DNA from: Eledone cirrhosa
Taxonomy: Eukaryota
Assembly: GCA_964016885.1 (NCBI GenBank)
Contig: CAXHJY010000456.1
Coordinates: 62,001-126,000 of the forward strand
Length of the DNA stretch: 64,000 nucleotides
Reading direction: 5' to 3'
Shown here: one piece after another, positions 18,289 through 63,510 of the stretch
Layout of the letters: every line of letters starts with the position of its first letter
Position numbering within the stretch: the first letter of the stretch is position 1
Notes under the pieces: model-generated
Told to the model about the DNA's origin: nothing
Databases searched by the model: none
Seen by the model: the letters and a program-made list of their open reading frames with translations, nothing else
Translations under genes and position numbers: made by a program

Positions 18289-18430
18289 TCATCATCATCA
18301 TCATCATCGTTAGCATGGATTAGACAAGTTGTCTCGTTTGAGGCAAGTTGGGTCAGGTGACCGTGTCTTGCTCACACAGAACTGTTTCTAGTTTGGTTTC
18401 TGTGGCTGGATACCCTTCTTAATGCCAACC
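18288..18430 (-). mobile_element. RTE-tailed SINE/LINE 3' end contiguous with the 48-bp array
   Basis: (CAT)n, TAGCATGGATTAGAC, GCTGGATACCCTTCTTAATGCCAACCAC. Confidence 0.75.
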
Positions 18431-19732
18431 ACATTTACAGTGTGGGCTGGATGCTTTTGTCGTGACATCTACATGACCACTTTACAGCTGGGGCTGGGTG
18501 CTTTTTGTCGTGACACCTACACAACCACTTTACAGTGTGGGCTAGGTGCTTTTTGTCGTGACACCTACACAACCACTTTACAGTGTGGGCTAGGTGCTTT
18601 TTGTCGTGACACCTACACAACCACTTTACAGTGTGGGCTGGATGCTTTTTGTCATGACATCTACATGACCACTTTACAGTGTGGGCTAGGTGCTTTTTGT
18701 CGTGACACCTACACGACCACTTTACAGCTGGGGCTGGGTGCTTTTTGTCGTGACACCTACATGACCACTTTACAGCTGGGGCTGGGTGCTTTTTGTCGTG
18801 ACACCTACACAACCATGTTACAGTGTGGGCTAGGTGCTTTTTGTCGTGACACCTACACAACCACTTTACAGTGTGGGCTAGGTGCTTTTTGTCGTGACAC
18901 CTACACAACCACTTTACAGTGTGGGCTAGGTGCTTTTTGTTGTGACACCTACACAACCACTTTACAGTGTGGGCTGGATGCTTTTTGTCATGACATCTAC
19001 ATGACCACTTTACAGTGTGGGCTAGGTGCTTTTTGTCGTGACACCTACACGACCACTTTACAGCTGGGGCTGGGTGCTTTTTGTCGTGACACCTACACAA
19101 CCATGTTACAGTGTGGGCTAGGTGCTTTTTGTCGTGACACCTACACAACCACTTTACAGTGTGGGCTGGATGCTTTTTGTCATGACATCTACATGACCAC
19201 TTTACAGTGTGGGCTAGGTGCTTTTTGTCGTGACACCTACACAACCACTTTACAGTGTGGGCTGGATGCTTTTTGTCGTGACACCTACACAACCACTTTA
19301 CAGTGTGGGCTAGGTGCTTTTTGTCGTGACACCTACACGACCACTTTACAGCTGGGGCTGGGTGCTTTTTGTCGTGACACCTACACAACCACTTTACAGT
19401 GTGGGCTAGGTGCTTTTTGTCGTGACACCTACACGACCACTTTACAGCTGGGGCTGGGTGCTTTTTGTCGTGACACCTACATGACCACTTTACAGCTGGG
19501 GCTGGGTGCTTTTTGTCATGACACCTACATGACCACTTTACAGCTGGGGCTGGGTGCTTTTTGTCGTGACACCTACACGACCACTTTACAGTGTGGGCTA
19601 GGTGCTTTTTGTCATGACATCTACACGACCACTTTACAGTGTGGGCTAGGTGCTTTTTGTCATGACACCTACACAACCACTTTACAGTGTGGGCTAGGTG
19701 CTTTTTGTCATGACATCTACACGACCACTTTG
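18428..19732. repeat. 48-bp minisatellite, about 27 copies
   Basis: Unit CCACTTTACAGTGTGGGCTAGGTGCTTTTTGTCGTGACACCTACACAA; 16-aa periodicity in the ORF track. Confidence 0.97.
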
Positions 19733-21700: not shown

Positions 21701-21720
21701 TATTATTTCTTTATTAAATA

Positions 21721-21924
21721 GGGCGGTGGATTGGCAGTATCAGTAAAGGGTCGGACGCCATGCTATGCAGCAGAGAGTTACGGTCCTTAATGATCTGAGT
21801 TCAAATCCCGCCAAGGTTAACTTTGCCTTTCATCCTTACGGGGTCGATAAATTATGGTACCAGTCACACCATGGGGTCGATTTAATCGACTGTCCCCTAG
21901 CCCAAAATTGCTGGCCTTGTGCCT
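21721..21924 (+). mobile_element. Full-length copy of the same SINE
   Basis: GGGCGGTGGATTGGCAGTATC head through TTGCTGGCCTTGTGCC. Confidence 0.85.
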
Positions 21925-21989
21925 ATTCAATAATAAGGTATCCCAGTCTAAATCTGGCCTTGCACAACGTTAAACCCCTAGTTATAGAT

Positions 21990-22429: not shown

Positions 22430-22790
22430 TGGGACTGATGGTGGTGTGTTGGGCGGTGGTGGTGGTGAAGTGAATGTTGTGTTGTTGTTGTTGTTAGTTG
22501 ATGTTGTTATTTTATGTGTATGTTGATGTTGTTGATGGTAGTGATGGTGATGGTGGTGTGTAATGCTGTTGTTGTTGGTGGCAATAGTGTTGTTGTTGGT
22601 GGTGGTGGTGTTGGTGTTGGTGGTGTTGTTATTGGTGTTGTTGTTGTTGTTATTGTTGGTAGTGGTGTTGTTGTTGTTGGTGTTGGTGGTAGTGTTGTTG
22701 GTGGCGGTGGTAGTGTTGTTATTGGTGTTGTTGTTGTTGTTATTGGTGGTAGTGGTGTTGTTGGTGGTAGTAGTGTTGTTCTTGGTGTTG

Positions 22791-22822
<32 letters not shown>

Positions 22823-25800
22823 AGTGTTGTTGTTGGTGTTGTTGTTGTTGTTGTTGGTATTGGTGGTAGTGTTGTTGTTGGTGGTGGTGGTAGTGTTGTT
22901 GTTGGTGGTGGTAGTGTTGTTGTTGGTGGTGGTAGTGTTGTTGTTGGTGGTGGTGGTGTTGTTGTTGGTGGTGGTGTTGTTGTTGGTGTTGGTGGTAGTG
23001 TTGTTGGTGTTGTTGTTGTTGTTGGTGGTGGTAGTGTTGTTGTTGGTGGTGGTGGTAGTGGTGTTGGTGTTGTTGTTGTTGTTGGTGGTGGTGGTGTTGT
23101 TGTTGGTGGTAGTGTTGTTGTTGCTGGTGGTGGTAGTGTTGTTGTTTGTGGTGGTGGTAGTGTTGTTGTTGGTGGTGGTGGTAGTGTTGTTTTTGTTGTT
23201 GGTGGTGGTGGTAGTGTTGTTGTTGGTGGTGGTGGTAGTGGTGTTGGTGTTGTTGTTGTTGTTGGTGGTGGTAGTGTTGTTGTTGGTGGTGGTAGTGTTG
23301 TTGTTGGTGGTGGTGGTGTTGTTGTTGGTGGTAGTGTTGTTGTTGGTGGTGGTGGTAGTGTTGTTGTTGGTGGTGGTGGTAGTGTTGTTGTTGGTGGTGG
23401 TGGTAGTGTTGTTTTTGTTGTTGGTGGTGGTGGTAGTGTTGTTGTTGGTGGTGGTGGTAGTGGTGTTGGTGTTGTTGTTGTTGTTGGTGGTGGTAGTGTT
23501 GTTGTTGGTGGTGGTGGTAGTGTTGTTGTTGGTGGTGGTAGTGTCGTTGTTGGTGGTGGTAGTGGTGTTGCTGTTGGTGGTGGTGGTAGTGTTGTTGTTG
23601 GTGGTGGTAATGTTGTTGTTGGTGGTGGTGGTAGTGTTGTTGGTGGTGGTGGTGGTAGTGTTGTTGTTGGTGGTGGTAGTGGGGTTGCTGTTGGTGGTGG
23701 TGGTAGTGTTGTTGGTAGTGGTGGTAGTGTTGTTGTTGGTGGTGGTGGTAGTGTTTTTGTTGGTGGTGGTAGTGTTGTTGTTGTTGGTGGTGGTAGTGGT
23801 GTTGTTGTTGGTGGTGGTAGTGGTGTTGTTGTTGGTGGTGGTGGTAGTGTTGTTGTTGGTGGTGGTGGTAGTGTTGTTGTTGGTGGTGGTAGTGTTGTTG
23901 TTGTTGTTGGTGGTAGTGTTGTTGTTGGTGGTAGTGGTAGTGTTGTTGGTGGTGGTGGTAGTGTTGTTGTTGGTGGTGGTAGTGGTGTTGGTGTTGTTGT
24001 TGTTGGTGGTGGTAGTGGTGTTGTTGGTGGTGGTGGTACTGTTGTTGTTGGTGGTGGTAGTGTTGTTGTTGGTGGTGGTAGTAGTGTTGTTGTTGGTGGT
24101 GGTGGTAGTGGTGTTGGTGTTGTTGTTGTTGGTGGTGGTGGTAGTGTTGTTGTTGGTGGTGGTGGTAGTGGTGTTGGTGTTGTTGTTGGTGGTGGTAGTG
24201 TTGTTGTTGGTGGTGGTGGTAGAGTTGTTGTTGGTGGTGGTAGTGGTGTTGGTGTTGTTGTTGGTGGTGGTAGTGTTGTTGTTGGTGGTGGTGGTAGTGT
24301 TGTTGTTGGTGGTGGTAGTGTTGTTGTAGGTGGTGGTAGTGTTGTTGTTGGTGGTGGTGGTAGTGGTTTTGGTGTTGTTGTTGTTGTTGGTGGTGGTAGT
24401 GTTGTTGTTGTTGGTGGTGGTAGTGATGTTCTTGGTGGTGGTGGTAGTGTTGTTGGTGGTGGTGGTAGTGTTGTTGGTGTTGGTGGTAGTGTTGTTGTTG
24501 GTGGTGGTGTTGTTGTTGTTGGTGGTGGTGGTAGTGTTGTTGTTGTTGGTGGTGGTAGTGGTGTTGTTGTTGGTGGTGGTAGTGTTGTTAATGGTGGTGG
24601 TAGTGTTGTTGGTGTTGGTGGTAGTGTTGTTGTTGGTGGTGGTAGTGTTGTTGTTGGTGGTGGTGGTAGTGTTGTTAATGGTGGTGGTAGTGTTGTTGGT
24701 GTTGGTGGTAGTGTTGTTGTTGGTGGTGGTAGTGTTGTTGTTGGTGGTGGTGGTAGTGTTGTTAATGGTGGTGGTAGTGTTGTTGGTGTTGGTGGTAGTG
24801 TTGTTGTTGGTGGTGGTGTTGTTGTTGTTGTTGGTGGTGGTAGTGTTGTTGTTGGTGGTGGTGGTAGTGTTGTTGTTGGTGGTGGTGGTAGTGCTGTTAA
24901 TGGTGGTGGTAGTGTTGTTGGTGTTGGTGGTTGTGTTATTGTTGGTGGTGGTAGTGTTGTTGTTGGTGGTGGTGGTAGTGTTGTTGTTGGTGTTGGTGGT
25001 TGTGTTGTTGTTGGTGGTGGTAGTGTTGTTGTTAATGGTGGTGGTAGTGTTGTTGGTGTTGGTGGTAGTGTTGTTGTTGGTGGTGGTGTTGTTGTTGTTG
25101 TTGGTGGTGGTAGTTTTGTTGTTGGTGGTGGTGGTAGTGTTGTTAATGGTGGTGGTAGTGTTGTTGGTGTTGGTGGTAGTGTTGTTGTTGGTGGTGGTAG
25201 TGTTGTTGTTGGTGGTGGTAGTAGTGTTGTTGTTGGTGGTGGTAGTGTTGTTAATGGTGGTGGTAGTGTTGTTGGTGTTGGTGGTAGTGTTGTTGTTGGT
25301 GGTGTTGTTGTTGTTGTTGTTGGTGGTGGTAGTGTTGTTGTTGGTGGTGGTGGTAGTGTTGTTGGTGGTGGTAGTGTTGTTAATGGTGGTGGTAGTGTTG
25401 TTGGTGTTGGTGGTAGTGTTGTTGTTGGTGGTGGTAGTGTTGTTGTTGGTGATGGTGGTAGTGTTGTTGTTGTTGTTGGTGGTGGTAGTGTTGTTGTTGG
25501 TGGTGGTGGTAGTGTTGTTGTTGGTGGTGGTAGTGTTGTTGTTGGTGGTGGTGGTAGTGTTGTTAATGGTGGTGGTAGTGTTGTTGGTGTTGGTGGTAGT
25601 ATTGTTGTTGGTGGTGGTAATGTTGTTGTTGGTGGTGGTGGTAGTGTTGTTGTTGGTGGTGGTGGTAGTGTTGTTGTTGTTGTTGGTGGTAGTGTTGTTA
25701 TTGGTGGTGGTAGTGTTGTTGTTGGTGGTGGTGGTAGTGTTGTTGTTGTTGGTGGTGGTAGTGTTGTTGTTGGTGGTGGTAGTGTTGTTGGTGGTGATGG

Positions 25801-28800
25801 AAGTGTTGTTGTTGTTGGTGGTGGTAGTGTTGTTGTTGGTGGTGGTAGTGGTGTTGGTTTTGTTGTTGCTGGTGGTAGTGTTGTTGTTCGTGGTGGCGGT
25901 AGTGTTGTTGTTGGTGGTGGTAGTGTTGTTGGTTTTGTTGTTGCTGGTGGTAGTGTTGTTGTTCGTGGTGGCGGTAGTGTTGTTGTTGGTGGTGGTAGTG
26001 TTGTTGTTGGTGGTGGTGGTAGTGTTGTTGTTGGTGGTGGTAGTGGTGTTGGTTTTGTTGTTGCTGGTGGTAGTGTTGTTGTTCGTGGTGGCGGTAGTGT
26101 TGTTGTTGGTGGTGGTAGTGTTGTTGTTGTTGGTGGTGGTAGTGTTGTTGTTGGTGGTGGTAGTGGTGTTGGTTTTGTTGTTGCTGGTGGTAGTGTTGTT
26201 GTTCGTGGTGGCGGTAGTGTTGTTGTTGGTGGTGGTAGTGTTGTTGTTGGTGGTGGTGGTAGTGTTGTTGTTGGTGGTGGTAGTAGTGTTGTTGTTGGTG
26301 GTGGTGGTAGAGTTGTTGGTGGTGGTGGTAGTGGTGTTGTTGTTGGTGGTGGTAGTGCTGTTGTTGGTGGTGGTAGTGTTGTTGGTGGTGGTGGAAGTGT
26401 TGTTGTTGTTGGTGGTGGTAGTGTTGTTGTTGGTGGTGGTAGTAGTGTTGTTGTTGGTGGTGGTGGTAGAGGTGTTGGTGGTGGTGGTAGTAGTGTTGTT
26501 GTTGGTGGTGGTGGTAGAGTTGTTGGTGGTGGTGGTAGTGGTGTTGGTGTTGTTGTTGGTGGTGGTAGTGTTGTTGTTGGTGGTGGTAGTAGTGTTGTTG
26601 TTGGTGGTGGTAGTGTTGTTGTTGGTGGTGGTAGTAGTGTTGTTGTTGGTGGTGATAGTGGTGTTGTTGTTGGTGGTGGTAGTGGTGTTGTTGTTGGTGG
26701 TGGTGGTAGAGTTGTTGGTGGTGGTGGTAGTGGTGTTGGTGGTGGTGGTAGTGGTGTTGGTGTCGTTGTTGGTGGTGGTAGTGTTGTTGTTGGTGGTGGT
26801 AGTAGTGTTGTTGTTGGTGGTGGTAGTGTTGTTGTTGGTGGTGGTAGTAGTGTTGTTGTTGGTGGTGGTAGTGTTGTTGTTGGTGGTGGTAGTAGTGGTG
26901 TTGGTGTTGTTGTTGGTGGTGGTAGTGTTGTTGTTGGTGGTGGTAGTAGTGTTGTTGTTGGTGGTGGTAGTGTTGTTGTTGGTGGTGGTAGTAGTGTTGT
27001 TGTTGGTGGTGGTAGTAGTGTTGTTGTTGGTGGTGGTGGTAGTGGTGTTGGTGTTGTTGTTGGTGGTGGTAGTGTTGTTGTTGGTGGTGGTAGTAGTGTT
27101 GTTGGTGGTGGTAGTAGTGTTGTTGTTGGTGGTGGTAGTGTTGTTGTTGGTGGTGGTAGTAGTGTTGTTGGTGGTGGTAGTAGTGTTGTTGTTGGTGGTG
27201 GTAGTAGTGTTGTTGTTGGTGGTGGTAGTGTTGTTGTTGGTGGTGGTGGTAGTGGTGTTGGTGTTGTTGTTGGTGGTGGTAGTGTTGTTGTTGGTGGTGG
27301 TAGTAGTGTTGTTGGTGGTGGTAGTAGTGTTGTTGTTGGTGGTGGTAGTAGTGTTGTTGTTGGTGGTGGTAGTGTTGTTGTTGGTGGTGGTAGTAGTGTT
27401 GTTGGTGGTGGTAGTAGTGTTGTTGTTGGTGGTGGTGGTAGTGGTGTTGGTGTTGTTGTTGGTGGTGGTAGTGTTGTTGTTGGTGGTGGTAGTAGTGTTG
27501 TTGGTGGTGGTAGTAGTGTTGTTGTTGGTGGTGGTAGTGGTGTTGGTGTTGTTGTTGCTGGTGGTAGTGTTGTTGTTGGTGGTGGTAGTGTTGTTGTTGG
27601 TGGTGGTAGTAGTGTTGTTGTTGGTGGTGGTGGTAGAGTTGTTGGTGGTGGTGGTAGTGGTGTTGTTGTTGGTGGTGGTAGTGTTGTTGTTGGTGGTGGT
27701 AGTGTTGTTGGTGGTGGTGGTAGTGTTGTTGTTGGTGGTGGTAGTAGTGTTGTTGTTGGTGGTGGTAGTGTTGTTGTTGGTGGTGGTAGTAGTGTTGTTG
27801 TTGGTGGTGGTAGTAGTGTTGTTGTTGGTGGTGGTGGTGGTAGTGGTGTTGGTGTTGTTGTTGGTGGTGGTAGTGTTGTTGTTGGTGGTGGTAGTAGTGT
27901 TGTTGTTGGTGGTGGTGGTAGTGGTGTTGGTGTTGTTGTTGGTGGTGGTAGTGTTGTTGTTGGTGGTGGTAGTAGTGTTGTTGGTGTTGGTGGTAGTGTT
28001 GTTAATGGTGGTGGTAGTGTTGTTGGTGTTGGTGGTAGTGTTGTTGTTGGTGGTGGTGTTGTTGTTGGTGGTGGTAGTGTTGTTGTTGGTGGTGGTGGTA
28101 GTGTTGTTAATGGTGGTGGTAGTGTTGTTGGTGTTGGTGGTAGTGTTGTTGTTGGTGGTGGTGTTGTTGTTGTTGTTGGTGGTGGTAGTGTTGTTGTTGG
28201 TGGTGGTGGTAGTGTTGTTGTTGGTGGTGGTGGTAGTGTTGTTAATGGTGGTGGTAGTGTTGTTGGTGTTGGTGGTAGTGTTGTTGTTGGTGGTGGTAGT
28301 GTTGTTGTTGGTGATGGTGGTAGTGTTGTTGTTGTTGTTGGTGGTGGTAGTGTTGTTGTTGGTGGTGGTGGTAGTGTTGTTGTTGGTGGGGGTAGTGTTG
28401 TTGTTGGTGGTGGTGGTAGTGTTGTTAATGGTGGTGGTAGTGTTGTTGGTGTTGGTGGTAGTATTGTTGTTGGTGGTGGTAATGTTGTTGTTGGTGGTGG
28501 TGGTAGTGTTGTTGTTGGTGGTGGTGGTAGTGTTGTTGTTGTTGTTGGTGGTAGTGTTGTTATTGGTGGTGGTAGTGTTGTTGTTGGTGGTGGTAGTGTT
28601 GTTGTTGGTGGTGGTGGTAGTGTTGTTGTTGGTGGTGGTAGTGTTGTTGTTGTTGGTGGTGGTAGTGTTGTTGTTGGTGGTGGTAGTGTTGTTGGTGGTG
28701 GTGGAAGTGTTGTTGTTGTTGGTGGTGGTAGTGTTGTTGTTGGTGGTGGTAGTAGTGTTGTTGTTGGTGGTGGTGGTAGAGTTGTTGGTGGTGGTGGTAG

Positions 28801-31800
28801 TAGTGTTGTTGTTGGTGGTGGTGGTAGAGTTGTTGGTGGTGGTGGTAGTGGTGTTGGTGTTGTTGTTGGTGGTGGTAGTGTTGTTGTTGGTGGTGGTAGT
28901 AGTGTTGTTGTTGGTGGTGGTAGTGTTGTTGTTGGTGGTGGTAGTAGTGTTGTTGTTGGTGGTGATAGTGGTGTTGTTGTTGGTGGTGGTGGTAGAGTTG
29001 TTGGTGGTGGTGGTAGTGGTGTTGGTGGTGGTGGTAGTGGTGTTGGTGTCGTTGTTGGTGGTGGTAGTGTTGTTGTTGGTGGTGGTAGTTGTGTTGTTGT
29101 TGGTGGTGGTAGTGTTGTTGTTGGTGGTGGTAGTAGTGTTGTTGTTGGTGGTGGTAGTAGTGTTGTTGTTGGTGGTGGTGGTAGTGGTGTTGGTGTTGTT
29201 GTTGGTGGTGGTAGTGTTGTTGTTGGTGGTGGTAGTAGTGTTGTTGGTGGTGGTGGTAGTGTTGTTGTTGGTGGTGGTAGTAGTGTTGTTGTTGGTGGTG
29301 GTAGTGGTGTTGGTGTTGTTGTTGCTGGTGGTAGTGTTGTTGTTGGTGGTGGTGGTAGTGTTGTTGTTGGTGGTGGTAGTAGTGTTGTTGTTGGTGGTGG
29401 TAGTGTTGTTGTTGGTTGTGGTGGTAGAGTTGTTGGTGGTGGTGGTAGTGGTGTTGTTGTTGGTGGTGGTAGTGTTGTTGTTGGTGGTGGTAGTGTTGTT
29501 GGTGGTGGTGGAAGTGTTGTTGTTGTTGGTGGTGGTAGTGTTGTTGTTGGTGGTGGTAGTGGTGTTGGTGTTGTTGTTGCTGGTGGTAGTGTTGTTGTTG
29601 GTGTTGGTGGTAGTATTGTTGTTGGTGGTGGTGGTAGTGTTGTTTTTGTTGTTGGTGGTAGTAGTGTTGTTGTTGGTGGTGGTGGTAGTGGTGTTGGTGT
29701 TGTTGTTGTTGGTGGTGGTGGTAGTGTTGTTGTTGGTGGTGGTGGTAGTGTTGTTGTTGGTGGTGGTAGTGTTGTTGTTGGTGGTGGTGGTAGTGTTGTT
29801 GTTGGTGGTGGTGGTAGTGTTGTTGTTGTTGGTGGTGGTGTTGTTGTTGGTGGTGGTAGTGGTGTTGCTGTTGGTGGTGGTGGTAGTGTTGTTGTTGGTG
29901 GTGGTGGTAGTATTGTTGTTGGTGGTGGTGGTAGTGTTGTTGTTGGTGGTGGTAGTGTCGTTGTTGGTGGTGGTAGTGGTGTTGTTGTTGGTGGTGGTAG
30001 TGGTGTTGCTGTTGGTTGTGGTGGTAGTGTTGTTGTTGGTGGTGGTAGTGTTGTTGTTGGTGGTGGTGGTAGTGTTGTTGTTGGTGGTGGTAGTGGTGTT
30101 GTTGTTGGTGGTGGTAGTGGTGTTGCTGTTGGTGGTGGTGGTAGTGTTGTTGGTAGTGGTGGTAGTGTTGTTGTTGGGGTGGTGGTAGTGTTGTTGTTGG
30201 TGGTGGTGGTAGTGTTGTTGTTGGTGGTGGTGGTAGTGTTGTTGTTGGTGGTGGTAGTGTTGTTGTTGGTGGTGGTAGAGGTGTTGTTGGTGGTGGTAGT
30301 GTTGTTGCTGGTGGTGGTAGTGTTGTTGTTGGTGGTGGTGGTAGTGTTGTTGTTGGTGGTGGTAGTGGTGTTGTTGTTGGTGGTGGTAGTGGTGTTGTTG
30401 GTGGTGGTGGTAGTGTTGTTGTTGGTGGTGGTGGTAGTGTTGCTGTTGGTGGTGGTAGTGTTGTTGTCGTTGTTGGTGGTAGTGTTGTTGTTGGTGGTAG
30501 TGGTAGTGTTGTTGGTGGTGGTGGTAGTGTTGTTGTTGGTGGTGGTAGTGGTTTTGTTGTTGGTGGTGGTAGTGGTGTTGTTGTTGGTGGTGGTGGTAGT
30601 GTTGTTGTTGGTGGTGGTGGTAGTGTCATTGTTGGTGGTGGTAGTGTCGTTGTTGGTGGTGGTAGTGTTGTTGTTGGTGGTGGTAGTGGTGTTGTTGGTG
30701 GTGGTAGTGTTGTTGTTGGTGGTGGTAGTGGTAGTGTTGTTGTTGGTGGTGGTAGTGGTGTTGTTGTTGGTGGTGGTAGTGGTGTTGTTGTTGGTGGTGG
30801 TGGTAGTGTTGTTGTTGGTGGTGGTAGTGTCGTTGTTGGTGGTGGTAGTAGTGTTGTTGTTGGTGGTGGTAGTGTTGTTGTTGGTGGTGGTAGTGTTGTT
30901 GTTGTTGGTGGTGGTAGTGTTGTTGTTGGTGTTGGTGGTAGTATTGTTGTTGGTGGTGGTGGTAGTGTTGTTGTTGGTGGTGGTAGTGTTGTTGTTGGTG
31001 GTGGTGGTAGTGTTGTTGTTGGTGGTGGTGGTGTTGTTGTTGGTGGTGGTGGTAGTGTTGTTGTTAGTGGTGGTGGTATTGTTGTTGTGGGTGGTGGTAG
31101 TGTTGTTGTTGTTGGTGGTAGTGTTGTTGTTGGTGGTGGTGGTAGTGTTGTTCTTGGTGGTTGTAGTGTTGTTGTTGGTGGTGGTAGTGTTGTGTTGTTG
31201 TTGGTGGTGGTGGTAGTGTTGTTGTTGTTGGTGGTGGTAGTGTTGTTGTTGTTGGTGGTGGTAGTGTTGTTGTTGTTGGTGGTGGTAGTGTTGTTGTTGG
31301 TGGTGGTAGTAGTGTTGTTGTTGGTGGTGGTAGTGGTGTTGGTGATGTTGTTGTTGGTGGTGGTAGTGGTGTTGGTGTTGTTGTTGTTGGTGGTGGGAGT
31401 GGTGTTGTTGGTGGTGGTGGTAGTGTTGTTGTTGGTGGTGGTAGTAGTGTTTTTGTTGATGATGGTGGTAGTGTTGTTGTTGGTGGTGGTGGTAGTGTTG
31501 TTGTTGGTGGTGGTGGTAGTGTTGTTGTTGGTGGTGGTATTGTTGTTGTTGGTGGTGGTAGTGTTGTTGTTGGTGGTGGTGGTAGTGGTGTTGTTGGTGG
31601 TGGTGGTAGTGTTGTTGTTGGTGGTGGTAGTGTTGTTGTTGGTGGTGGTAGTGTTGTTGTTGGTGGTGGTGGTAGTGTTGTTGTTGGTGGTGGTAGTGTT
31701 GTTGGTGGTGGTGGTAGTGTTGTTGTTGTTGGTGGTGGTAGTGTTGTTGTTGGCGGTGGTCGTAGTGTTGTTGTTGGTGGTGGTAGTGTTGTTGTTGGTG

Positions 31801-46800: not shown

Positions 46801-49800
46801 TTGTTGTTGGTGTTGGTGGTAGTGTTGTTGTTGGTGGTGGTGGTAGTGTTGTTGTTGGTGGTGGTAGTGTTGTTGTTGGTGGTGGTTGTGTTGTTGTTGG
46901 TGGTGGTGGTAGTGTTGTTGTTGGTGGTGGTGGTAGTGTTGTTGTTGGTGGTGGTGGTAGTGTTTTTGTTGGTGGTGGTGGTAGTGTTGTTGTTGTTGGT
47001 GGTGGTAGTGTTGTTGTTGTTGGTGGTCGTAGTGGTGTTGTTGGTGGTGGTAGTGTTGTTGTTGTTGGTGGTGGTAGTGTTGCTGGTGGTGGTAGTGTTG
47101 TTGTTGTTGGTGGTGGTAGTGTTGTTGTTGATGGTGGTGGTAGTGTTGTTGTTGGTGGTGGTAGTGTTGTTGTTGATGGTGGTGGTAGTGTTGTTGTTGG
47201 TGGTGGTAGTGTTGTTGTTGATGGTGGTGGTAGTGTTGTTGTTGGTGGTGGTAGTGTTGTTGTTGTTGGTGGGGGTAGTGTTGTTGTTGGTGGTGGTGGT
47301 AGTGTTGTTGTTGGTGATGGTGGTAGTGTTGTTGTTGGTGGTGGTGGTAGTGTTTTTGTTGGTGGTGGTGGTAGTGTTGTTGTTGTTGGTGGTTGTAGTG
47401 TTGTTGTTGTTGGTGGTCGTAGTGGTGTTGTTGGTGGTGGTAGTGTTGTTGTTGTTGTTGGTGGTGGTAGTGTTGCTGGTGGTGGTAGTGTTGTTGTTGT
47501 TGGTGGTGGTAGTGTTGTTGTTGATGGTGGTAGTAGTTTTGTTGTTGTTGGTGGTGGTAGTGTTGTTGTTGGTGGGGGTAGTGTTGTTGTTGATGGGGGT
47601 AGTGTTGTTGTTGGTGGTGGTGGTAGTGTTGTTGTTGGTGGTGGTAGTGTTGTTGTTGGTGGTGGTAGTGTTGTTGTTGGTGATGGTGGAGGTGTTGTTG
47701 TTGTTGGTGGTACTGTTGTTGTTGGTGGTGGTGGCAGTGTTGTTGTTGGTGGTGGTGGTAGTGTTGTTGTTGGTGGTGGTGGTAGTGTTGTTGCTGGTGG
47801 TGGTAGTGTTGTTGTTGCTGGTGGTGATAGTGTTGTTGTTGGTGGTGGTGGTAGTGTTGTTGTTGGTGGTGGTAGTGTTGTTGTTGGTGGTGGTGGTGGT
47901 GGTAGTGTTGTTGTTGTTGGTGGTGGTAGTGTTGTTGTGGGTGGTGGTAGTGTTGTTGTTGGTGGTGGTAGTGTTGTTGTTGTTGGTGGTGGTAGTGTTG
48001 TTGTTGGTGGTGGTAGCGTTGTTGATGTTGTTGGTGTTGTTGTTGTTGTTGGTGGTGGTAGTGTTGTTGTTGGTGGTGGTGGTAGTGTTGTTGGTGGTGG
48101 TGTTAGTGGTTTTGTTGGTGGTGGTAGTGTTGTTGGTGCTGGTAGTGTTGTTGGTGGTGGTGGTAGTGTCGTTGTTGGTGGTGGTAGTGTCGTTGGTGGT
48201 GGTGGTAGTGTTGTTGTTGGTGGTGGTAGTGTTGTTGTTGGTGGTGGTGGTAGTGTTGTTGGTGGTGGTGGTAGTGTTGTTGGTGGTGGTGGTGGTAGTG
48301 TTGTTGTTATTGGTGGGGGTAGTGTTGTTGTTGGTGTTGGTGGTAGTGTTGTTGTTGGTGGTGGTGGTAGTGTTGTTGTTGGTGGTGGTAGTGTTGTTGT
48401 TGGTGGTGGTTGTGTTGTTGTTGGTGGTGGTGGTAGTGTTGTTGTTGGTGGTGGTGGTAGTGTTGTTGTTGGTGGTGGTGGTAGTGTTTTTGTTGGTGGT
48501 GGTGGTAGTGTTGTTGTTGTTGGTGGTGGTAGTGTTGTTGTTGTTGGTGGTCGTAGTGGTGTTGTTGGTGGTGGTAGTGTTGTTGTTGTTGGTGGTGGTA
48601 GTGTTGCTGGTGGTGGTAGTGTTGTTGTTGTTGGTGGTGGTAGTGTTGTTGTTGATGGTGGTGGTAGTGTTGTTGTTGGTGGTGGTAGTGTTGTTGTTGA
48701 TGGTGGTGGTAGTGTTGTTGTTGGTGGTGGTAGTGTTGTTGTTGATGGTGGTGGTAGTGTTGTTGTTGTTGGTGGAGGTAGTGTTGTTGTTGTTGGTGGG
48801 GGTAGTGTTGTTGTTGGTGGTGGTGGTAGTGTTGTTGTTGGTGGTGGTGGTAGTGTTGTTGTTGGTGGTGGTGGTAGTGTTTTTGTTGGTGGTGGTGGTA
48901 GTGTTGTTGTTGTTGGTGGTGGTAGTGTTGTTGTTGTTGGTGGTCGTAGTGGTGTTGTTGGTGGTGGTAGTGTTGTTGTTGTTGTTGGTGGTGGTAGTGT
49001 TGCTGGTGGTGGTAGTGTTGTTGTTGTTGGTGGTGGTAGTGTTGTTGTTGATGGTGGTAGTAGTTTTGTTGTTGTTGGTGGTGGTAGTGTTGTTGTTGGT
49101 GGGGGTAGTGTTGTTGTTGATGGGGGTAGTGTTGTTGTTGGTGGTGGTGGTAGTGTTGTTGTTGGTGGTGGTAGTGTTGTTGTTGGTGGTGGTAGTGTTG
49201 TTGTTGGTGATGGTGGAGGTGTTGTTGTTGTTGGTGGTACTGTTGTTGTTGGTGGTGGTGGCAGTGTTGTTGTTGGTGGTGGTGGTAGTGTTGTTGTTGG
49301 TGGTGGTGGTAGTGTTGTTGTTGGTGGTGGTAGTGTTGTTGTTGCTGGTGGTGATAGTGTTGTTGTTGGTGGTGGTGGTAGTGTTGTTGTTGGTGGTGGT
49401 AGTGTTGTTGTTGGTGGTGGTAGTGTTGTTGTTGGTGGTGGTAGTGTTGTTGTTGTTGGTGGTGGTGGTAGTGTTGTTGTTGTTGGTGGTGGTAGTGTTC
49501 TTGTTGGTGGTGGTGGTAGTGTTGTTGTTGGTGGTGGTAGTGTTGTTGTTGGTGGTGGTGGTAGTGTTGTTGTTGGTGGTGGTAGTGTTGTTGTTGGTGG
49601 TGGTGGTAGTGTTGTTTTTGGTGGTGGTAGTGTTGTTGTTGGTGGGGGTAGTGTTGTTGTTGGTGGTGGTGGTAGTGTTGTTGTTGGTGGTGGTAGTGTT
49701 GTTGTTGGTGGTGGTGGTAGTGTTGTTGTTGGTGGTGGTAGTGTTGTTGTTGGTGGTGGTAGTGTTCTTGTTGGTGGTGGTAGTAGTGTTGTTGGTGGTG

Positions 49801-52800
49801 GTGGTGTTGTTGTTGGTGGTGGTGGTAGTGTTGTTGTTGGTGGTGGTGGTAGTGTTGTTGTTGGTGGTGGTGGTAGTGTTGTTGTTGGTGGTGGTGGTGT
49901 TGTTGTTGGTGGTGGTGGTGGTAGTGTTGTTGTTGGTGGTGGTAGTGTTGTTGTTGCTGGTATTGGATGTGTTGTTGTTGTTGGTGGTAGTCTTGTTGTT
50001 GGTGGTGGTAGTTTTGTTGTTGGTGGTGGTGGTGGTGGTAGTGTTATTGTCGGTGGTGGTGGTAGTGTTGTTGTTGTTGGTGGTGGTAGTGTTGTTGTTG
50101 ATGGTGGTGGTGTTTTTGTTGGTGGTGGTAGTGTTGTTGTTGGTGGTGCTGGTAGTGTTGTTGTTGTTGTTGGTGGTAGTGTTGTTGTTGGTGGTGGTGG
50201 TGGTAGTGTTGTTGTTGGTGATGGCAGTGTTGTTGTTGGTGGTGGTGGTAGTGTTGTTGTTGTTGGTTGTGGTGGTAGTGTTGTTGTTGGTGGTGGTGGT
50301 AGTGTTGTTGGTGGTGGTGGTAGTGTTTTTGTTGGTGGTGGTAGTGTTGTTGTTGGAGGTGGTGGTAGTGTTGTTGTTGGTGGTGGTGGTAGTGTTGTTG
50401 TTGGTGGTGGTAGTGTTGTTTTTGGTGGTGGTGGTAGTGTTGTTGGTGGTGGTGGTAGTGTCATTGTTGGTGGTGGTAGTGTCGTTGGTGGTGGTGGTAG
50501 TGTCGTTGTTGGTGGTGGTAGTGTTGTTGTTGGTGGTGGTGGTATTGTTGTTGGTGGTGGTGATAGTGTTGTTGTTGGTGGTGGTAGTGTTGTTGTTGGT
50601 GGTGGTGGTGGTAGTGTTGTTGTTGGTGGTGGTGGTAGTGTTGTTGGCGGTGGTGGTAGTGTTGTTGTTCGTGGTGGTGGTAGTGTTGTTGTTGGTGGTG
50701 GTAGTGTTGTTGTTGGTGATGGTGGTAGTGTTGTTGTTGGTGGTGGTGGTAGTGTTTTTGTTGTTGGTGCTGGTAGTGTCGTTGTTGTTGGTGGTAGTGT
50801 TGTTGTTGGTGGTGGTGGTGGTAGTGTTGTTGTTGGTGGTGGTAGTGTTGTTGTTGGTGGTAGTTGTAGTGTTGTTATTGGTGGTGGTGGTAGTGTTGTT
50901 GTTGTTGGTGGTGGTAGTGTTGTTGTTGGTGGTGGTGGTAGTGTTGTTGTTGGTTGTGGTGGTAGTGTTGTTGTTGTTGGTGGTGGTAGTGTTGTTGTTG
51001 TTGGTGGTGGTAGTGTTGTTGTTGGTGGTGGTGGTAGTGTTGTTGTTGTTGGTGGTGGTAGTGTTGTTGTTGGTGGTGGTAGTGTTGTTGTCGGTGGTGG
51101 TGGTAGTGTTCTTGTTGGTGGTGGTAGTGTTGTTGTTGGTGGTGGTGGTGTTGTTGTTGGTGGTGGTGGTAGTGTTGTTGTTGGTGGTGGTGGTAGTGTT
51201 GTTGTTGTTGGTGGGGGTTGTGTTGTTGTTGGTGGTGGTAGTGTTGTTGTTGGTGGTGGTGGTGTTGTTGTTGTTGGTGGTGGTAGTGTTCTTGTTGGTG
51301 GTGGTGGTAGTGTTGTTGTTGGTGGTGGTAATAGTGTTGTTGGTGGTGGTGGTAGTGTTGTTGTTGTTGGTGGTGGTAGTTTTGTTGTTGTTGGTGGTGG
51401 TAGTATTGTTGTTGGTGGTGGTGGTGTTGTTGTTGGTGGTTGTGGTGGTAGTGTTGTTGTTGGTGGTGGTAGTGTTGTTGTTGGTGGTAGTGGAAGTGTT
51501 CTTGTTGTTGGTGGTAGTGTTGTTGTGTGGTGGTAGTGTTGTTGTTGGTGGTGGTGGTAGTGTTGTTGGTGGTGGTGGTAGTGTTGTTGTTGTTGGTGGT
51601 GGTAGTGTTTTTGTTGGTGGTGGTAGTGTTGTTGTTGGTGGTGGTGGTAGTGTTGTTGTCGGTGGTGGTAGTGTTGTTGTTGTTGGTGGTGGTAGTGTTG
51701 TTGTTGGTGGTGGTAGTGTTGTTGTTGGTGGTGGTGGTAGTGTTGTTGTCGGTGGTGGTAGTGTTGTTGTTGTTGGTGGTGGTAGTGTTGTTGTTGGTGG
51801 TGGTAGTGTTGTTGTTGGTGGTGGTAGTGTTGTTGTTGGTGGTGGTGGTAGTGTTGTTGTTGGTGGTGGTAGTGTTGTTGGTGGTGGTGGTAGTGTTGTT
51901 GTTGTTGGTGGTGGTAGTGTTGTTGTTGGCGGTGGTCGTAGTGTTGTTGTTGGTGGTGGTAGTGTTGTTGTTGGTGGTGGTAGTGTTGTTGTTGGTGGTG
52001 GTGGTAGTGTTGTTGTTGGTGGTGGTAGTGTTGTCGTTGTTGGTGGTAGTGTTGTTGTTGGTGGTGGTGGTAGTGTTGTTGGTGGTGGTGGTGGTGGTAG
52101 TGTTGTTGTTGGTGGTGGTAGTGTTGTTGTTGTTGTTGGTGGTGGTAGTGTTGTTGTTGGTGGTGGTGGTAGTGTTGTTGTTGGTGGTGGTAGTGTTGTT
52201 GCTGGTGGTAGTGGTAGTGTTGTTGTTGGTGGTGGTAGCATTGTTGTTGGTGGTGGTGGTGTTGTTGTTGGTGGTGGTGGTAGTGTTGTTGTTGGTGGTG
52301 GTAGCATTGTTGTTGGTGGTAGGGGTGTTGTTGTTGGTGGTGGTGGTAGTGTTGTTGTTGGTGGTGGTGGTAGTGTTGTTGTTGGTGGTGGTAGTGTTGT
52401 TGTTGGTGGTGGTGGTAGTGTTGTTGTTGGTGGTGGTAGCATTGTTGTTGGTGGTAGGGGTGTTGTTGTTGTTGGTGGTGGTAGTGTTGTTGTTGGTGGT
52501 GGTAGTGTTGTTGTTGGTGGTGGTGGTAGTGTTATTGGTGGAAGTGTTAGTGGTGTTGTTGGTGGTGGTAGTGTTGTTTTTGGTGGTGGTGGTAGTGTCG
52601 TTGTTGGTGGTGGTAGTGTCGTTGGTGGTGGTGGTAGTGTTGTTGCTGGTGGTAGTGGTAGTGTTGTTGTTGGTGGTGGTAGCATTGTTGTTGGTGGTAG
52701 GGGTGTTGTTGTTGGTGGTGGTGGTAGTGTTGTTGTTGGTGGTTGTAGTGTTGTTGTTGGTGGTGGTGGTAGTGTTATTGGTGGAGGTGTTAGTGGTGTT

Positions 52801-58800: not shown

Positions 58801-61800
58801 GGTGGTAGTTGTAGTGTTGTTATTGGTGGTGGTGGTAGTGTTGTTGCTGTTGGTGGTGGTAGTGTCGTTGTTGGTGGTGGTGGTAGTGTTGTTGTTGGTG
58901 GTGGTGGTAGTGTTGTTGGCGGTGGTGGTAGTGTTGTTGTTCGTGGTGGTGGTAGTGTTGTTGTTGGTGGTGGTAGTGTTGTTGTTGGTGATGGTGGTAG
59001 TGTTGTTGTTGGTGGTGGTGGTAGTGTTGTTGGTGGTGGTGGTAGTGTTGTTGTTGTTGGTGCTGGTAGTGTCGTTGTTGTTGGTGGTAGTGTTGTTGTT
59101 GGTGGTGGTGGTGGTAGTGTTGTTGTTGGTGGTGGTAGTGTTGTTGTTGGTGGTAGTTGTAATGTTGTTATTGGTGGTGGTAGTAGTGTTGTTGTTGTTG
59201 GTGGTGGTAGTGTTGTTGTTGGTGGTGGTGGTAGTGTTGTTGTTGGTTGTGGTGGTAGTGTTGTTGTTGGTGGTGGTAGTGTTGTTGTCGGTGGTGGTGG
59301 CAGTGTTCTTGTTGGTGGTGGTAGTGTTGTTGTTGGTGGTGGTGGTGTTGTTGTTGGTGGTGGTGGTAGTGTTGTTGTTGGTGGTGGTGGTAGTGTTGTT
59401 GTTGTTGGTGGGGGTAGTGTTGTTGTTGGTGGTGGTAGTGTTGTTGTTGGTGGTGGTGGTGTTGTTGTTGTTGGTGGTGGTAGTGTTCTTGTTGGTGGTG
59501 GTGGTAGTGTTGTTGTTGGTGGTGGTAGTGTTGTTGTTGGTGGTGGTGGTAGTGTTGTTGTTGGTGGTGGTAGTGTTGTTGTTGGTGGTGGTGGTAGTGT
59601 TGTTTTTGGTGGTGGTAGTGTTGTTGTTGGTGGGGGTAGTGTTGTTGTTGGTGGTGGTGGTAGTGTTGTTGTTGGTGGTGGTAGTGTTGTTGTTGGTGGT
59701 GGTGGTAGTGTTGTTGTTGGTGGTGGTAGTGTTGTTGTTGGTGGTGGTAGTGTTCTTGTTGGTGGTGGTAGTAGTGTTGTTGGTGGTGGTGGTGTTGTTG
59801 TTGGTGGTGGTGGTAGTGTTGTTGTTGGTGGTGGTGGTAGTGTTGTTGTTGGTGGTGGTGGTAGTGTTGTTGTTGGTGGTGGTGGTGTTGTTGTTGGTGG
59901 TGGTGGTGGTAGTGTTGTTGTTGGTGGTGGTAGTGTTGTTGTTGCTGGTATTGGATGTGTTGTTGTTGTTGGTGGTAGTCTTGTTGTTGGTGGTGGTAGT
60001 TTTGTTGTTGGTGGTGGTGGTGGTGGTAGTGTTGTTGTCGGTGGTGGTGGTAGTGTTGTTGTTGTTGGTGGTGGTAGTGTTGTTGTTGATGGTGGTGGTG
60101 TTTTTGTTGGTGGTGGTAGTGTTGTTGTTGGTGGTGCTGGTAGTGTTGTTGTTGTTGTTGGTGGTAGTGTTGTTGTTGGTGGTGGTGGTGGTAGTGTTGT
60201 TGTTGGTGATGGCAGTGTTGTTGTTGGTGGTGGTGGTAGTGTTGTTGTTGTTGGTTGTGGTGGTAGTGTTGTTGTTGGTGGTGGTGGTAGTGTTGTTGGT
60301 GGTGGTGGTAGTGTTTTTGTTGGTGGTGGTAGTGTTGTTGTTGGAGGTGGTGGTAGTGTTGTTGTTGGTGGTGGTAGTGTTGTTTTTGGTGGTGGTGGTA
60401 GTGTTGTTGTTGGTGGTGGTGGTAGTGTTGTTGTTGGTGGTGGTAGTGTTGTTTTTGGTGGTGGTGGTAGTGTTGTTGGTGGTGGTGGTAGTGTCATTGT
60501 TGGTGGTGGTAGTGTCGTTGGTGGTGGTGGTAGTGTCGTTGTTGGTGGTGGTAGTGTTGTTGTTGGTGGTGGTGGTATTGTTGTTGGTGGTGGTGATAGT
60601 GTTGTTGTTGGTGGTGGTAGTGTTGTTGTTGGTGGTGGTGGTGGTAGTGTTGTTGTTGGTGGTGGTGGTAGTGTTGTTGGCGGTGGTGGTAGTGTTGTTG
60701 TTCGTGGTGGTGGTAGTGTTGTTGTTGGTGGTGGTAGTGTTGTTGTTGGTGATGGTGGTAGTGTTGTTGTTGGTGGTGGTGGTAGTGTTTTTGTTGTTGG
60801 TGCTGGTAGTGTCGTTGTTGTTGGTGGTAGTGTTGTTGTTGGTGGTGGTGGTGGTAGTGTTGTTGTTGGTGGTGGTAGTGTTGTTGTTGGTGGTAGTTGT
60901 AGTGTTGTTATTGGTGGTGGTGGTAGTGTTGTTGTTGTTGGTGGTGGTAGTGTTGTTGTTGGTGGTGGTGGTAGTGTTGTTGTTGGTTGTGGTGGTAGTG
61001 TTGTTGTTGTTGGTGGTGGTAGTGTTGTTGTTGTTGGTGGTGGTAGTGTTGTTGTTGGTGGTGGTGGTAGTGTTGTTGTTGGTGGTGGTGGTAGTGTTGT
61101 TGTTGGTGGTGGTAGTGTTGTTGTCGGTGGTGGTGGTAGTGTTCTTGTTGGTGGTGGTAGTGTTGTTGTTGGTGGTGGTGGTGTTGTTGTTGGTGGTGGT
61201 GGTAGTGTTGTTGTTGGTGGTGGTGGTAGTGTTGTTGTTGTTGGTGGGGGTTGTGTTGTTGTTGGTGGTGGTAGTGTTGTTGTTGGTGGTGGTGGTGTTG
61301 TTGTTGTTGGTGGTGGTAGTGTTCTTGTTGGTGGTGGTGGTAGTGTTGTTGTTGGTGGTGGTAATAGTGTTGTTGGTGGTGGTGGTAGTGTTGTTGTTGT
61401 TGGTGGTGGTAGTTTTGTTGTTGTTGGTGGTGGTAGTATTGTTGTTGGTGGTGGTGGTGTTGTTGTTGGTGGTTGTGGTGGTAGTGTTGTTGTTGGTGGT
61501 GGTAGTGTTGTTGTTGGTGGTAGTGGAAGTGTTCTTGTTGTTGGTGGTAGTGTTGTTGTGTGGTGGTAGTGTTGTTGTTGGTGGTGGTGGTAGTGTTGTT
61601 GGTGGTGGTGGTAGTGTTGTTGTTGTTGGTGGTGGTAGTGTTTTTGTTGGTGGTGGTAGTGTTGTTGTTGGTGGTGGTAGTGTTGTTGTTGGTGGTAGTG
61701 GAAGTGTTCTTGTTGTTGGTGGTAGTGTTGTTGTGTGGTGGTAGTGTTGTTGTTGGTGGTGGTGGTAGTGTTGTTGTCGGTGGTGGTAGTGTTGTTGTTG

Positions 61801-63080
61801 TTGGTGGTGGTAGTGTTGTTGTTGGTGGTGGTAGTGTTGTTTTTGGTGGTGGTGGTAGTGTTGTTGGTGGTGGTGGTAGTGTCATTGTTGGTGGTGGTAG
61901 TGTCGTTGTTGTTGGTGGTAGTGTTGTTGTTGGTGGTGGTAGTGTTGTTGTTGGTGGTGGTGGTAGTGTTGTTGGTGGTGGTGGTAGTGTTGTTGTTGTT
62001 GGTGGTAGTGTTGTTGTTGGTGGTGGTAGTGGTAGTGTTGTTGTTGGTGGTGGTGGTGTTGTTGTTGGTGGTGGTAGTGTTGTTGTTGGTGGTGCTGGTA
62101 GTATTGTTGTTGTTGGTGGTGGTGGTAGTGTTGTTTTTGGTGGTGGTAGTGTTGTTGTTGGTGGGGGTAGTGTTGTTGTTGTTGGTGGTGGTGGTAGTGT
62201 TGTTGTTGGTGGTGGTAGTATTGTTGTTGGTGGTTGTGGTAGTGTTGTTGTTGGTGGTGGTGGTAGTGTTGTTGTTGGTGGTGGTGGTAGTGTTGTTGTT
62301 GGTGGTGGTGGTAGTGTTGTTGTTGGTGGTGGTAGTGTTGTTGTTGGTGGTGGTGGTAGTGTTCTTGTTGTTGGTGGTGGTGTTGTTGGTGGTGGTGGTA
62401 GTGTTGTTGTTGGTGGTGGTGGTAGTGTTGTTGTTGGTGCTGGTGGTAGTGTTGTTGTTGGTGGTGGTGGTATTGTTGTTGTTGGTGGTGGTAGTGTTGT
62501 TGTTGTTGGTGGTGGTAGTGTTGTTGTTGGTGGTGGTAGTAGTGTTGTTGGTGGTGGTGGTGGTAGTGTTGTTGTTGGTGGTGGTGGTAGTGTTGTTGGT
62601 GGTGGTGGTAGTGTTGTTGTTGATGGTGGTGGTAGTGTTGTTGTTGGTGGCGGTAGTGTTGTTGTTGGTGGTGGTGGTAGTGTTGTTGTTGGTGGTGGTG
62701 GTAGTGTTGTTTTTGTTGTTGGTGGTAGTGTTGTTGGTGGTGGTGGTAGTGTTGTTGTTGGTGGTGCTGGTAGTGTTGTTGTTGGTGGTGGTGGTAGTGT
62801 TGTTGTTGGTGGTGGTAGTGTTGTTGTTGTTGGTGGTGGTAGTGTTGTTGTTGGTTGTGGTGGTAGTGTTGTTGTTGTTGGTGGTGGTAGTGTTGTTGTT
62901 GGTGGTGGTGGTAGTGTTGTTGTTGGTGGTGGTGGTAGTGTTGTTGTTGGTGGTGGTAGTGTTGTTGTTTGTGGTGGTGGTAGTGTTGTTGTTGGTGGTG
63001 GTGGTAGTGTTTTTGTTGGTGGTGGTGGTATTGTTGTTGTTTGTGGTGGTAGTGTTGTTGTTGGTGTTGGTGATGATAAT
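22430..63080. repeat. ~40.6-kb triplet-based satellite (GGT)2-6 AGT (GTT)2-5, typically 21-24-bp units, with higher-order duplications
   Basis: Direct reading; plus strand almost devoid of C; irregular at the left edge; rare variant triplets recur in the same order at multi-kb offsets. Confidence 0.98.
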
Positions 63081-63354
63081 GATTGACACTCAATACTATG
63101 AAGCCAACAACCTACTACACTACACACATTCTACACAGTTGCCACCCATTTATAGAACACCAGTTACAACCCTGAGACAGTTAACCACCCAATACTATAA
63201 CATAATTCACTGTACATGAAGATCTGGATATCAATAACAATATTTACAGTTGTCATTTAATAGTATATGGATGCTAACAACTTACAAAACTCACATCCTA
63301 ACACAACCTTCACACTCCATACAATAAACATCCAATAATATATTACATAACCTC

Positions 63355-63510
63355 CACACTGTAAATGTGGTTGATATTAGGAAGGGCATCCAGCTGTAAA
63401 ATACAGCAAGGTATGATGCGCCCAACTGACCAGATTTGTCTCATAACATGGACGAACTGTCTAATCCATGCAAGCGTGGAAAAATAGAGGTTAAATGGTG
63501 ATGATGATAT
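63355..63510 (+). mobile_element. RTE-tailed SINE/LINE 3' end
   Basis: CACACTGTAAATGTGGTTG..TTAGGAAGGGCATCCAGCTGTA..TCCATGCAAGCGTGG..GTTAAATGGTGATGATG. Confidence 0.8.

What the first reader, a model, noticed from the sequence alone, without database searches (positions are those of the whole stretch)
22430..63080. 40-kb punctuated triplet satellite with a strict grammar and extreme strand asymmetry
Seen: well over a thousand units of (GGT)n-AGT-(GTT)m with runs capped at about six triplets; triplet phase breaks only five times; no transposon insertion in 40 kb although the flanks are saturated with them; plus strand nearly C-free. Inference: young or actively homogenised. (GGT)4 runs can form two-tier G-quadruplexes and a plus transcript would be GU-rich and R-loop prone, so a structural chromatin domain or protein-binding lncRNA is plausible.
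Basis: partly seen in the sequence, partly recalled or inferred. Interest (0 to 1): 0.7.

Follow-up and report, generated by a model that had tools for sequence, protein, structure and literature searches.

The report
40-kb triplet-built minisatellite in animal genome
This is a 40-kb run of about 1,800 short DNA repeats built from the triplets GGT, GTT and AGT, the largest found of many such repeat blocks in this animal genome, and it is most likely ordinary non-coding repeat DNA that grew recently by copying errors, with no sign of a special function.

Summary
In detail: 22,560-63,072 is a 40.5-kb array of about 1,800 units AGT-(GTT)3-(GGT)3-4 (21/24 bp), 0.6% C, with five internal phase breaks and no insertion. 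The array is young: 2-3-kb internal duplicates differ by under 0.1%. Three of the five breaks are copies of one event. Longest exact repeat is 1,065 bp, so wholesale assembler expansion is unlikely, though a 7-10-kb near-identical block could be an allelic mis-join. The grammar is not unique: it forms 1.4-8.8-kb arrays at four other loci with unrelated flanks, and control grammars (permuted order, GAT instead of AGT) form similar arrays. The minus strand reads like a mucin (TTTLPPP), but frameshifts, a stop, no synonymous excess and no neighbouring gene domains argue against coding. G-quadruplex potential is weak (no three-tier motif). Strand asymmetry, phase retention and lack of transposons follow from the unit, 3n slippage and youth. 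Verdict: an unusually long, likely neutral compound-triplet minisatellite.

The parts
22560..63072 (+). Compound-triplet minisatellite, unit AGT-(GTT)3-(GGT)3-4 (21/24 bp), about 1,800 copies
22439..22559 (+). Degenerate left edge of mixed GGT/GAT/GTT triplets with four further phase switches; likely remnant of the seed microsatellite (inferred)
22560..30177 (+). Left sub-domain with its own variants (AAT, AGTAGT and GGT-GTT-GGT types enriched)
   Evidence: variant map
30174..30182 (+). Phase break 1 (single copy)
31189..31197 (+). Phase break 2 (single copy)
44957..47666 (+). Block duplicated at 51,774-54,417: 2 substitutions in 2,644 aligned bases and one 66-bp indel
48192..49458 (+). Block duplicated at 54,361-55,603: 0 substitutions in 1,243 bases and one 24-bp indel
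49471..51645 (+). Block duplicated at 59,459-61,678: 2 substitutions in 2,175 bases and one 45-bp indel; carries the phase break at 51,527 copied to 61,560
61560..61909 (+). Local 175-bp spacing between the second and third copy of the same phase break (61,560 and 61,735)
42974..42976 (-). Single TGA stop in the minus-strand TTTLPPP reading frame
63073..63340 (.). Single-copy right flank; an acceptor-like AG at 63,097-63,096 (minus strand) precedes the TTTLPPP frame, without a pyrimidine tract
   Evidence: identical in contigs of runs X1 and X2 over 63,087-63,381
21720..21930 (+). Short interspersed repeat about 500 bp left of the array; one of many in the flanks (SINE label recalled, not from a call)

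Best explanation
The 40.5-kb stretch is a tandem array of about 1,800 units of AGT-(GTT)3-(GGT)3-4, most likely a non-coding, selectively neutral minisatellite that likely arose from a local patch of mixed triplet microsatellite and likely expanded recently by slippage and unequal exchange. Step 1 (inferred): a 21/24-bp word inside a degenerate GGT/GTT/AGT patch, like the one still at the left edge, became the repeating unit. Step 2 (shown as pattern, mechanism inferred): units gain or lose whole triplets, so run lengths scatter around 3-4 and the triplet phase is kept; only three independent non-3n events occurred. Step 3 (shown as pattern): blocks of 0.2-10 kb were duplicated with their variants, including one frameshift now in three copies; the youngest duplicates differ by under 0.1%. 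Step 4 (inferred): the array is too young and too poor in AT-rich sites to have collected transposons, and its runs have had too little time to drift beyond 6-7. The same process made 1-9-kb arrays of several grammars elsewhere in the genome; this one is the long tail of that class.
For: Unit and copy number. Nested duplications at offsets of about 150 bp to 13 kb, with 0-0.09% substitutions in three blocks, 0.7% in a fourth, and only 3n indels. Region-restricted variants. Exact two-unit patterns at five other loci only: C1, C6, C24 and C3, C6, C380; all other matches are the window's own 31 and 103. Four are same-grammar arrays of 8.5, 8.8, 3.5 and 1.4 kb with unrelated flanks. The C1 array keeps the grammar through about 20 phase breaks. 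The C3 array has two internal stops in the TTTLPPP frame and short repeats on both sides. Permuted-order control: 12 matches at 3 loci. GAT control: 26 matches at 6 loci. Of the 12 hit-centred control stretches fetched, 9 held a triplet array over 1 kb (1.2-6.1 kb), and 3 of those 9 had no phase break. k-mers shared between this array and its siblings are about as many as with a unit-shuffled control, so there is no sign of shared higher-order descent. No synonymous excess.
Against: It is about 4.6 times longer than the next same-grammar array found (8.8 kb), and why this locus grew so far is unexplained. Only exact patterns were searched, so the genome-wide class is sampled, not counted. Neutrality is inferred from missing signals; no chromatin or expression data were available. 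The synonymous test has low power (ratio 0.8-1.4, p about 0.3). The right edge is sharp and has an acceptor-like AG in frame with TTTLPPP, unlike the fading left edge. The near-identical 7-10-kb block could be an assembly mis-join of alleles.
Confidence: 0.8

Rival explanations
1. The array is the giant Pro/Thr-rich exon of a mucin-like gene on the minus strand (TTTLPPP repeated over about 13,500 codons), either mis-assembled at five bases or decayed.
For: One minus-strand phase reads 44% Pro, 39% Thr, 13% Leu. An AG at 63,097-63,096 precedes IECQSLSSPTPTTTLPP in frame. Phase is kept over stretches of up to 20 kb. Mucin repeat exons of 10 kb and more exist (recalled).
Against: Five frameshifts, three being one event copied by duplication, which is hard to explain as independent base errors. 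One TGA at 42,976. Read straight from the acceptor, the frame leaves TTTLPPP after about 450 codons and stops at 60,910. No stop is one substitution away from CCA, ACA or CTA, so long open frames are trivial, and a plus-strand Gly/Ser/Val frame is just as open. No synonymous excess. No convincing donor at the left end. 152 flank and array frames scanned against Pfam gave transposon-type domains (RT, endonuclease, PHD, Pif1) and three weak unrelated hits, no mucin domain; frames under 89 aa were not scanned, so small exons may be missed. The homologue search returned 14 weak hits, 12 without a usable alignment, none named from a mollusc. Sibling arrays are plainly not exons.
Confidence: 0.07
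2. The array is a functional chromatin or RNA element, acting through two-tier G-quadruplexes, R-loops or a GU-rich transcript.
For: 597 runs of four or more GGT could form two-tier quadruplexes ((GGT)4 quadruplexes recalled; a paper search, listed one paper, seen as listing and abstract start only). The plus strand has no competing hairpin (0 kcal/mol for 34,000-34,200). It is the largest of the same-grammar arrays found.
Against: G4Hunter mean 0.79, 2.3% of windows at 1.2 or more, no three-tier motif; 832 runs have only three GGT. Arrays with other punctuation and order occur at many loci. No evidence of transcription. Very recent structural turnover.
Confidence: 0.07
3. The assembler inflated the array, wholly or by joining two alleles in tandem.
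For: About 6 kb of 44,957-51,645 recurs in 51,774-61,678 at 99.9-100% identity. The contig is only 153 kb long. Read laying skipped the repeat, so length was not checked.
Against: Longest exact repeat 1,065 bp; 91% of 500-mers and 97% of 800-mers are unique. Duplicates differ by unit-sized indels and their order is rearranged (offsets 6.1, 6.8 and 10.0 kb), with a 3.9-kb stretch in between that has no such partner. At least about 33 kb would remain even if the block were a mis-join.
Confidence: 0.06

Closest known systems
GC-rich minisatellites (VNTRs) with interspersed variant repeats, e.g. human MS1, MS32 (recalled, not from a call)
   Same: Unit of 10-60 bp, variant units mixed along the array, strong strand bias, block duplication, mostly non-coding.
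   Different: Unit is itself built of triplet runs that slip; 40 kb is at or beyond the top of the usual size range; hypervariability not tested.
Expanded simple tandem repeats and simple-sequence satellites, e.g. mouse Ms6-hm and Hm-2, Triticeae GAA satellite of mixed GAA/GAG triplets (recalled; paper search found nothing)
   Same: Multi-kb arrays of very short words, one strand lacking a base, mixed triplets kept in phase.
   Different: A fixed 21/24-bp punctuated unit; dispersed at few loci of 1-40 kb rather than in megabase blocks, as far as this assembly shows.
Mucin PTS (VNTR) exons such as MUC2 and MUC5AC (recalled)
   Same: One minus-strand frame gives a Pro/Thr-rich repeat, with 3n length variation.
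   Different: Frameshifts, a stop, no flanking Cys-rich domains, no synonymous excess.
Simple-repeat fraction of octopus genomes (PMC13282606; part 1 of 3 of the text and three found passages read)
   Same: That paper reports about 66% repeats in Octopus vulgaris with LINEs and SINEs dominant and groups simple repeats and microsatellites as 'other repeats'; the flanks here are likewise LINE- and short-repeat-rich.
   Different: The word 'satellite' on its own does not occur in its main text; this array type is not described in the parts read. The assignment of this genome to octopods is my inference from recalled repeat features, not a tool result.

Membership tests
Minisatellite / small satellite DNA | Head-to-tail unit of 10-60 bp in many copies | tested here: met
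   21/24-bp unit, about 1,800 copies
Minisatellite / small satellite DNA | Variant repeats spread by local and block duplication | tested here: met
Minisatellite / small satellite DNA | Length polymorphism between alleles or individuals | not testable with these tools
   read laying skips the repeat
Minisatellite / small satellite DNA | No coding constraint | tested here: met
   frameshifts, stop, synonymous/non-synonymous ratio 0.8-1.4 not different from 1; the last test has low power
Dispersed satellite family of common descent | Shared higher-order sequence or shared flanks between loci | tested here: not met
   shared k-mers about equal to a unit-shuffled control; flanks unrelated by inspection
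Mucin PTS exon | Pro/Thr/Ser-rich repeat translation | tested here: met
   44% Pro, 39% Thr in one minus-strand phase
Mucin PTS exon | Continuous open frame | tested here: not met
   five frameshifts and one TGA
Mucin PTS exon | Flanking exons with signal peptide or VWD/CysD/SEA domains | tested here: not met
   none in 152 frames scanned on the 153-kb contig; frames under 89 aa not scanned
Mucin PTS exon | Spliced transcript | not testable with these tools
   no RNA run of this organism was offered
Centromeric or structural satellite | CENP-A or heterochromatin occupancy, chromosomal position | not testable with these tools
   no chromatin data; contig is 153 kb
G-quadruplex-forming repeat | Four tracts of three or more G with short loops, or G4Hunter 1.2 or more | tested here: not met
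   0 three-tier motifs; 2.3% of windows at 1.2 or more
G-quadruplex-forming repeat | Two-tier (GG) quadruplex folding in vitro | not testable with these tools
   597 runs of four or more GGT are candidates

The most novel reading that the evidence does not exclude
This genome turns mixed triplet microsatellites into punctuated 21/24-bp minisatellites again and again, each with its own grammar, and this 40-kb array is a snapshot of the step from microsatellite to satellite.
Probability: 0.1. Interest if true: 0.5.

Novelty: new member of a known kind. Interest (0 to 1): 0.15.

Why it matters
As read here it matters little: it is a large example of ordinary repeat turnover. It has modest practical value. 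Such arrays give very long open frames (11,509 codons here) that gene finders could call mucin- or extensin-like proteins. The nested duplications with dated variants make a neat natural record for studying how triplet microsatellites grow into satellites. If a transcript, protein or chromatin role were shown, it would be a rare case of a function arising in a very young simple repeat.

Tried and rejected
Stop-codon depletion as evidence for coding: rejected, because the dominant codons are two changes away from any stop in three frames. The 11,509-codon minus-strand ORF (28,560-63,089) crosses all five phase breaks and changes composition with each, so it is a by-product. Search for upstream exons in 28 kb right of the array by eye and Pfam: none; one search's output was cut, and 141 of 206 candidate frames (the longest, minus seven already scanned) were scanned. 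Homologue search with the first 200 codons, longer proteins only: compositional hits. Protein Atlas: unavailable. Read laying: the repeat part was skipped; X4 laid nothing; X5 matched only short pieces. Common descent of sibling arrays: not supported. C24:23.62 Mb matched the pattern once but is a looser 1.5-kb array and is not counted as a sibling. Paper searches: octopus + satellite DNA + tandem repeat + genome assembly; octopus + microsatellite + simple repeats + genome size; compound microsatellite + minisatellite + origin + trinucleotide + unequal crossing (none); minisatellite + evolved from + microsatellite + higher-order + triplet; cephalopod + satellite + centromere + tandem repeats; GGT + G-quadruplex + two-tier + trinucleotide repeat; GAA satellite + barley + triplet + GAG (none); octopus + microsatellite + abundance + trinucleotide + genome survey, at least 4 of 5 terms. 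No listing described this array; all but PMC13282606 were seen as listings only, and no supplements were read. Earlier scan notes: none matched by sequence or by words.
Full report
Setting. The window is G000:C483:62,001-126,000, on a 153,121-base contig of a 3.0-Gb assembly with chromosome-sized pieces. The flanks hold reverse transcriptase, endonuclease, PHD and Pif1 fragments, short interspersed repeats and long simple repeats. The repeat landscape looks octopus-like to me.

The observation. A phase-tracking model places the array at 22,560-63,072, with a degenerate edge from 22,439. Of 13,493 triplets, 5,862 are GGT, 5,202 GTT, 1,721 AGT and 708 other. The order is AGT, then GTT, then GGT. 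The commonest units are AGT-(GTT)3-(GGT)3 and AGT-(GTT)3-(GGT)4; TRF reports periods 21, 24 and 45 with about 1,800 copies. Runs reach 6 for GGT and 7 once for GTT. C makes up 259 of 40,651 bases. Phase breaks at about 30,178, 31,193, 51,527, 61,560 and 61,735 confirm the count of five, but the last three have the same surrounding sequence and are copies of one event. No stretch longer than three triplets leaves the grammar, and three repeat probes hit 45 times in 112 kb of flank and never in the array.

Internal history. The longest exact repeat is 1,065 bp, and 97% of 800-mers are unique. Duplicated blocks lie at offsets from about 150 bp to 13 kb. Three blocks of 2.6, 2.2 and 1.2 kb differ from their copies by 2, 2 and 0 substitutions plus one indel each of 66, 45 and 24 bases; a fourth pair differs by 0.7%. 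Variant triplets are confined to sub-regions, with a distinct left 7.6 kb. This is the pattern expected from recent, repeated unequal exchange on top of triplet slippage; the mechanism is inferred. A collapsed-then-expanded short array would not give this uniqueness. A tandem mis-join of two alleles over the 7-10-kb block is not excluded, because read laying skipped the repeat and confirmed only the right flank, in two runs of one sample.

Is the grammar special? Two exact two-unit patterns matched 35 and 140 times. The window accounts for 31 and 103; the rest fall at C1, C3, C6, C24 and C380. Four of these five are arrays of the same grammar, 8.5, 8.8, 3.5 and 1.4 kb long; C24 is looser. Their flanks are unrelated microsatellites and short repeats. 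C1 has about 20 phase breaks; C3 and C6 have none. Run lengths are capped at 4-7 in all of them. Controls with the order reversed or with GAT as punctuation matched at 3 and 6 loci, and a shorter-run variant at 3 more. Of those 12 stretches, 9 held triplet arrays over 1 kb, and 3 of the 9 had no phase break. Sharing of 60-120-mers between this array and its siblings was about the same as with a unit-shuffled control, so the arrays look like independent expansions or spread from very short seeds. Strict grammar, capped runs, kept phase and strand bias are therefore general features of a class in this genome. Only the length is unusual.

The coding rival. This would be a giant mucin exon. Against it: five frameshifts, one of them copied; a TGA at 42,976; termination at 60,910 if read straight; no convincing donor at the far end. 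Changes at the silent T position are not more frequent than at the non-silent T position (ratio 0.8-1.4 by distinct contexts, depending on how ambiguous triplets are assigned; p about 0.3), though power is low. No mucin domain was found among 152 frames scanned. A homologue search gave 14 weak hits, one named mucin-5AC-like from a fish, 12 without a usable alignment. Open frames here are trivial, since stops are two changes away. I put this rival at 0.07.

The functional-DNA rival. 597 runs of four or more GGT could fold into two-tier quadruplexes (recalled chemistry), and the plus strand has no hairpin. But the G4Hunter mean is 0.79, 2.3% of windows reach 1.2 and there is no three-tier motif. 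No RNA evidence was found. Lack of insertions needs no selection: flank repeat copies are 70-98% identical to the probes while the array's duplicates are over 99% identical, and the array has no TATA or AAAA. Earlier notes say several mobile elements here target TA microsatellites; I did not test this.

Comparison with what is known. It works like a minisatellite with variant repeats, or an expanded simple-sequence satellite, and meets the testable features of that class. It fails the tests for a mucin exon, for a dispersed family of common descent and for a canonical quadruplex repeat. Named comparators (human MS1/MS32, mouse Ms6-hm, Triticeae GAA satellite, mucin PTS exons) are recalled. Eight paper searches listed no description of this array. 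PMC13282606 (part 1 of 3 and three passages read) reports about 66% repeats in Octopus vulgaris and lumps simple repeats together; its supplements were not read and may list such arrays.

Verdict. A real, young, unusually long compound-triplet minisatellite, most likely neutral (0.8). New member of a known kind. Interest 0.15.

Noticed in passing
window 18,428-19,731: 48-bp minisatellite, 27 copies, 92% matches. The unit resembles, on the opposite strand, the high-copy repeat tail at 63,350-63,400 (by eye). It gives spurious 476- and 442-aa open frames on both strands.
   Followed up: partly
L012:2,620-7,620 (G000:C1, about 111.9046-111.9096 Mb): A second 5-kb triplet-phased satellite with a unit of about 39 bp lies 1.3 kb from the 8.5-kb sibling array.
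   Followed up: no
L002:267-2,040: Two overlapping open frames (343 and 279 aa) that look like a Penelope-type reverse transcriptase and GIY-YIG endonuclease (label recalled; Pfam gave no family at E 1e-4; translation).
   Followed up: no
L003:2,200-5,290: About 3-kb compound tetranucleotide array (CCAA/CCAT type), almost G-free on one strand: the same kind of strand-biased compound repeat with a four-base period, 21 kb from the array.
   Followed up: no
L003:5,416-6,908: Fragment with a Pif1 2B domain (E 8e-18), likely a Helitron piece.
   Followed up: no
L006-L009 (G000:C483:6,000-35,000): Many kb-scale TA/CA compound arrays with no G on one strand.
   Followed up: no
L038:4,623-7,873 and L039:4,079-6,419: Triplet arrays on opposite strands sit next to each other; not checked whether they form inverted pairs.
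   Followed up: no
L035:1-6,108 of the minus strand (G000:C24, about 25.831-25.837 Mb): Triplet-phased array of at least 6.1 kb with a more complex grammar (GGT, AGT, GTT, GAT, AGA); it runs off the fetched stretch.
   Followed up: no
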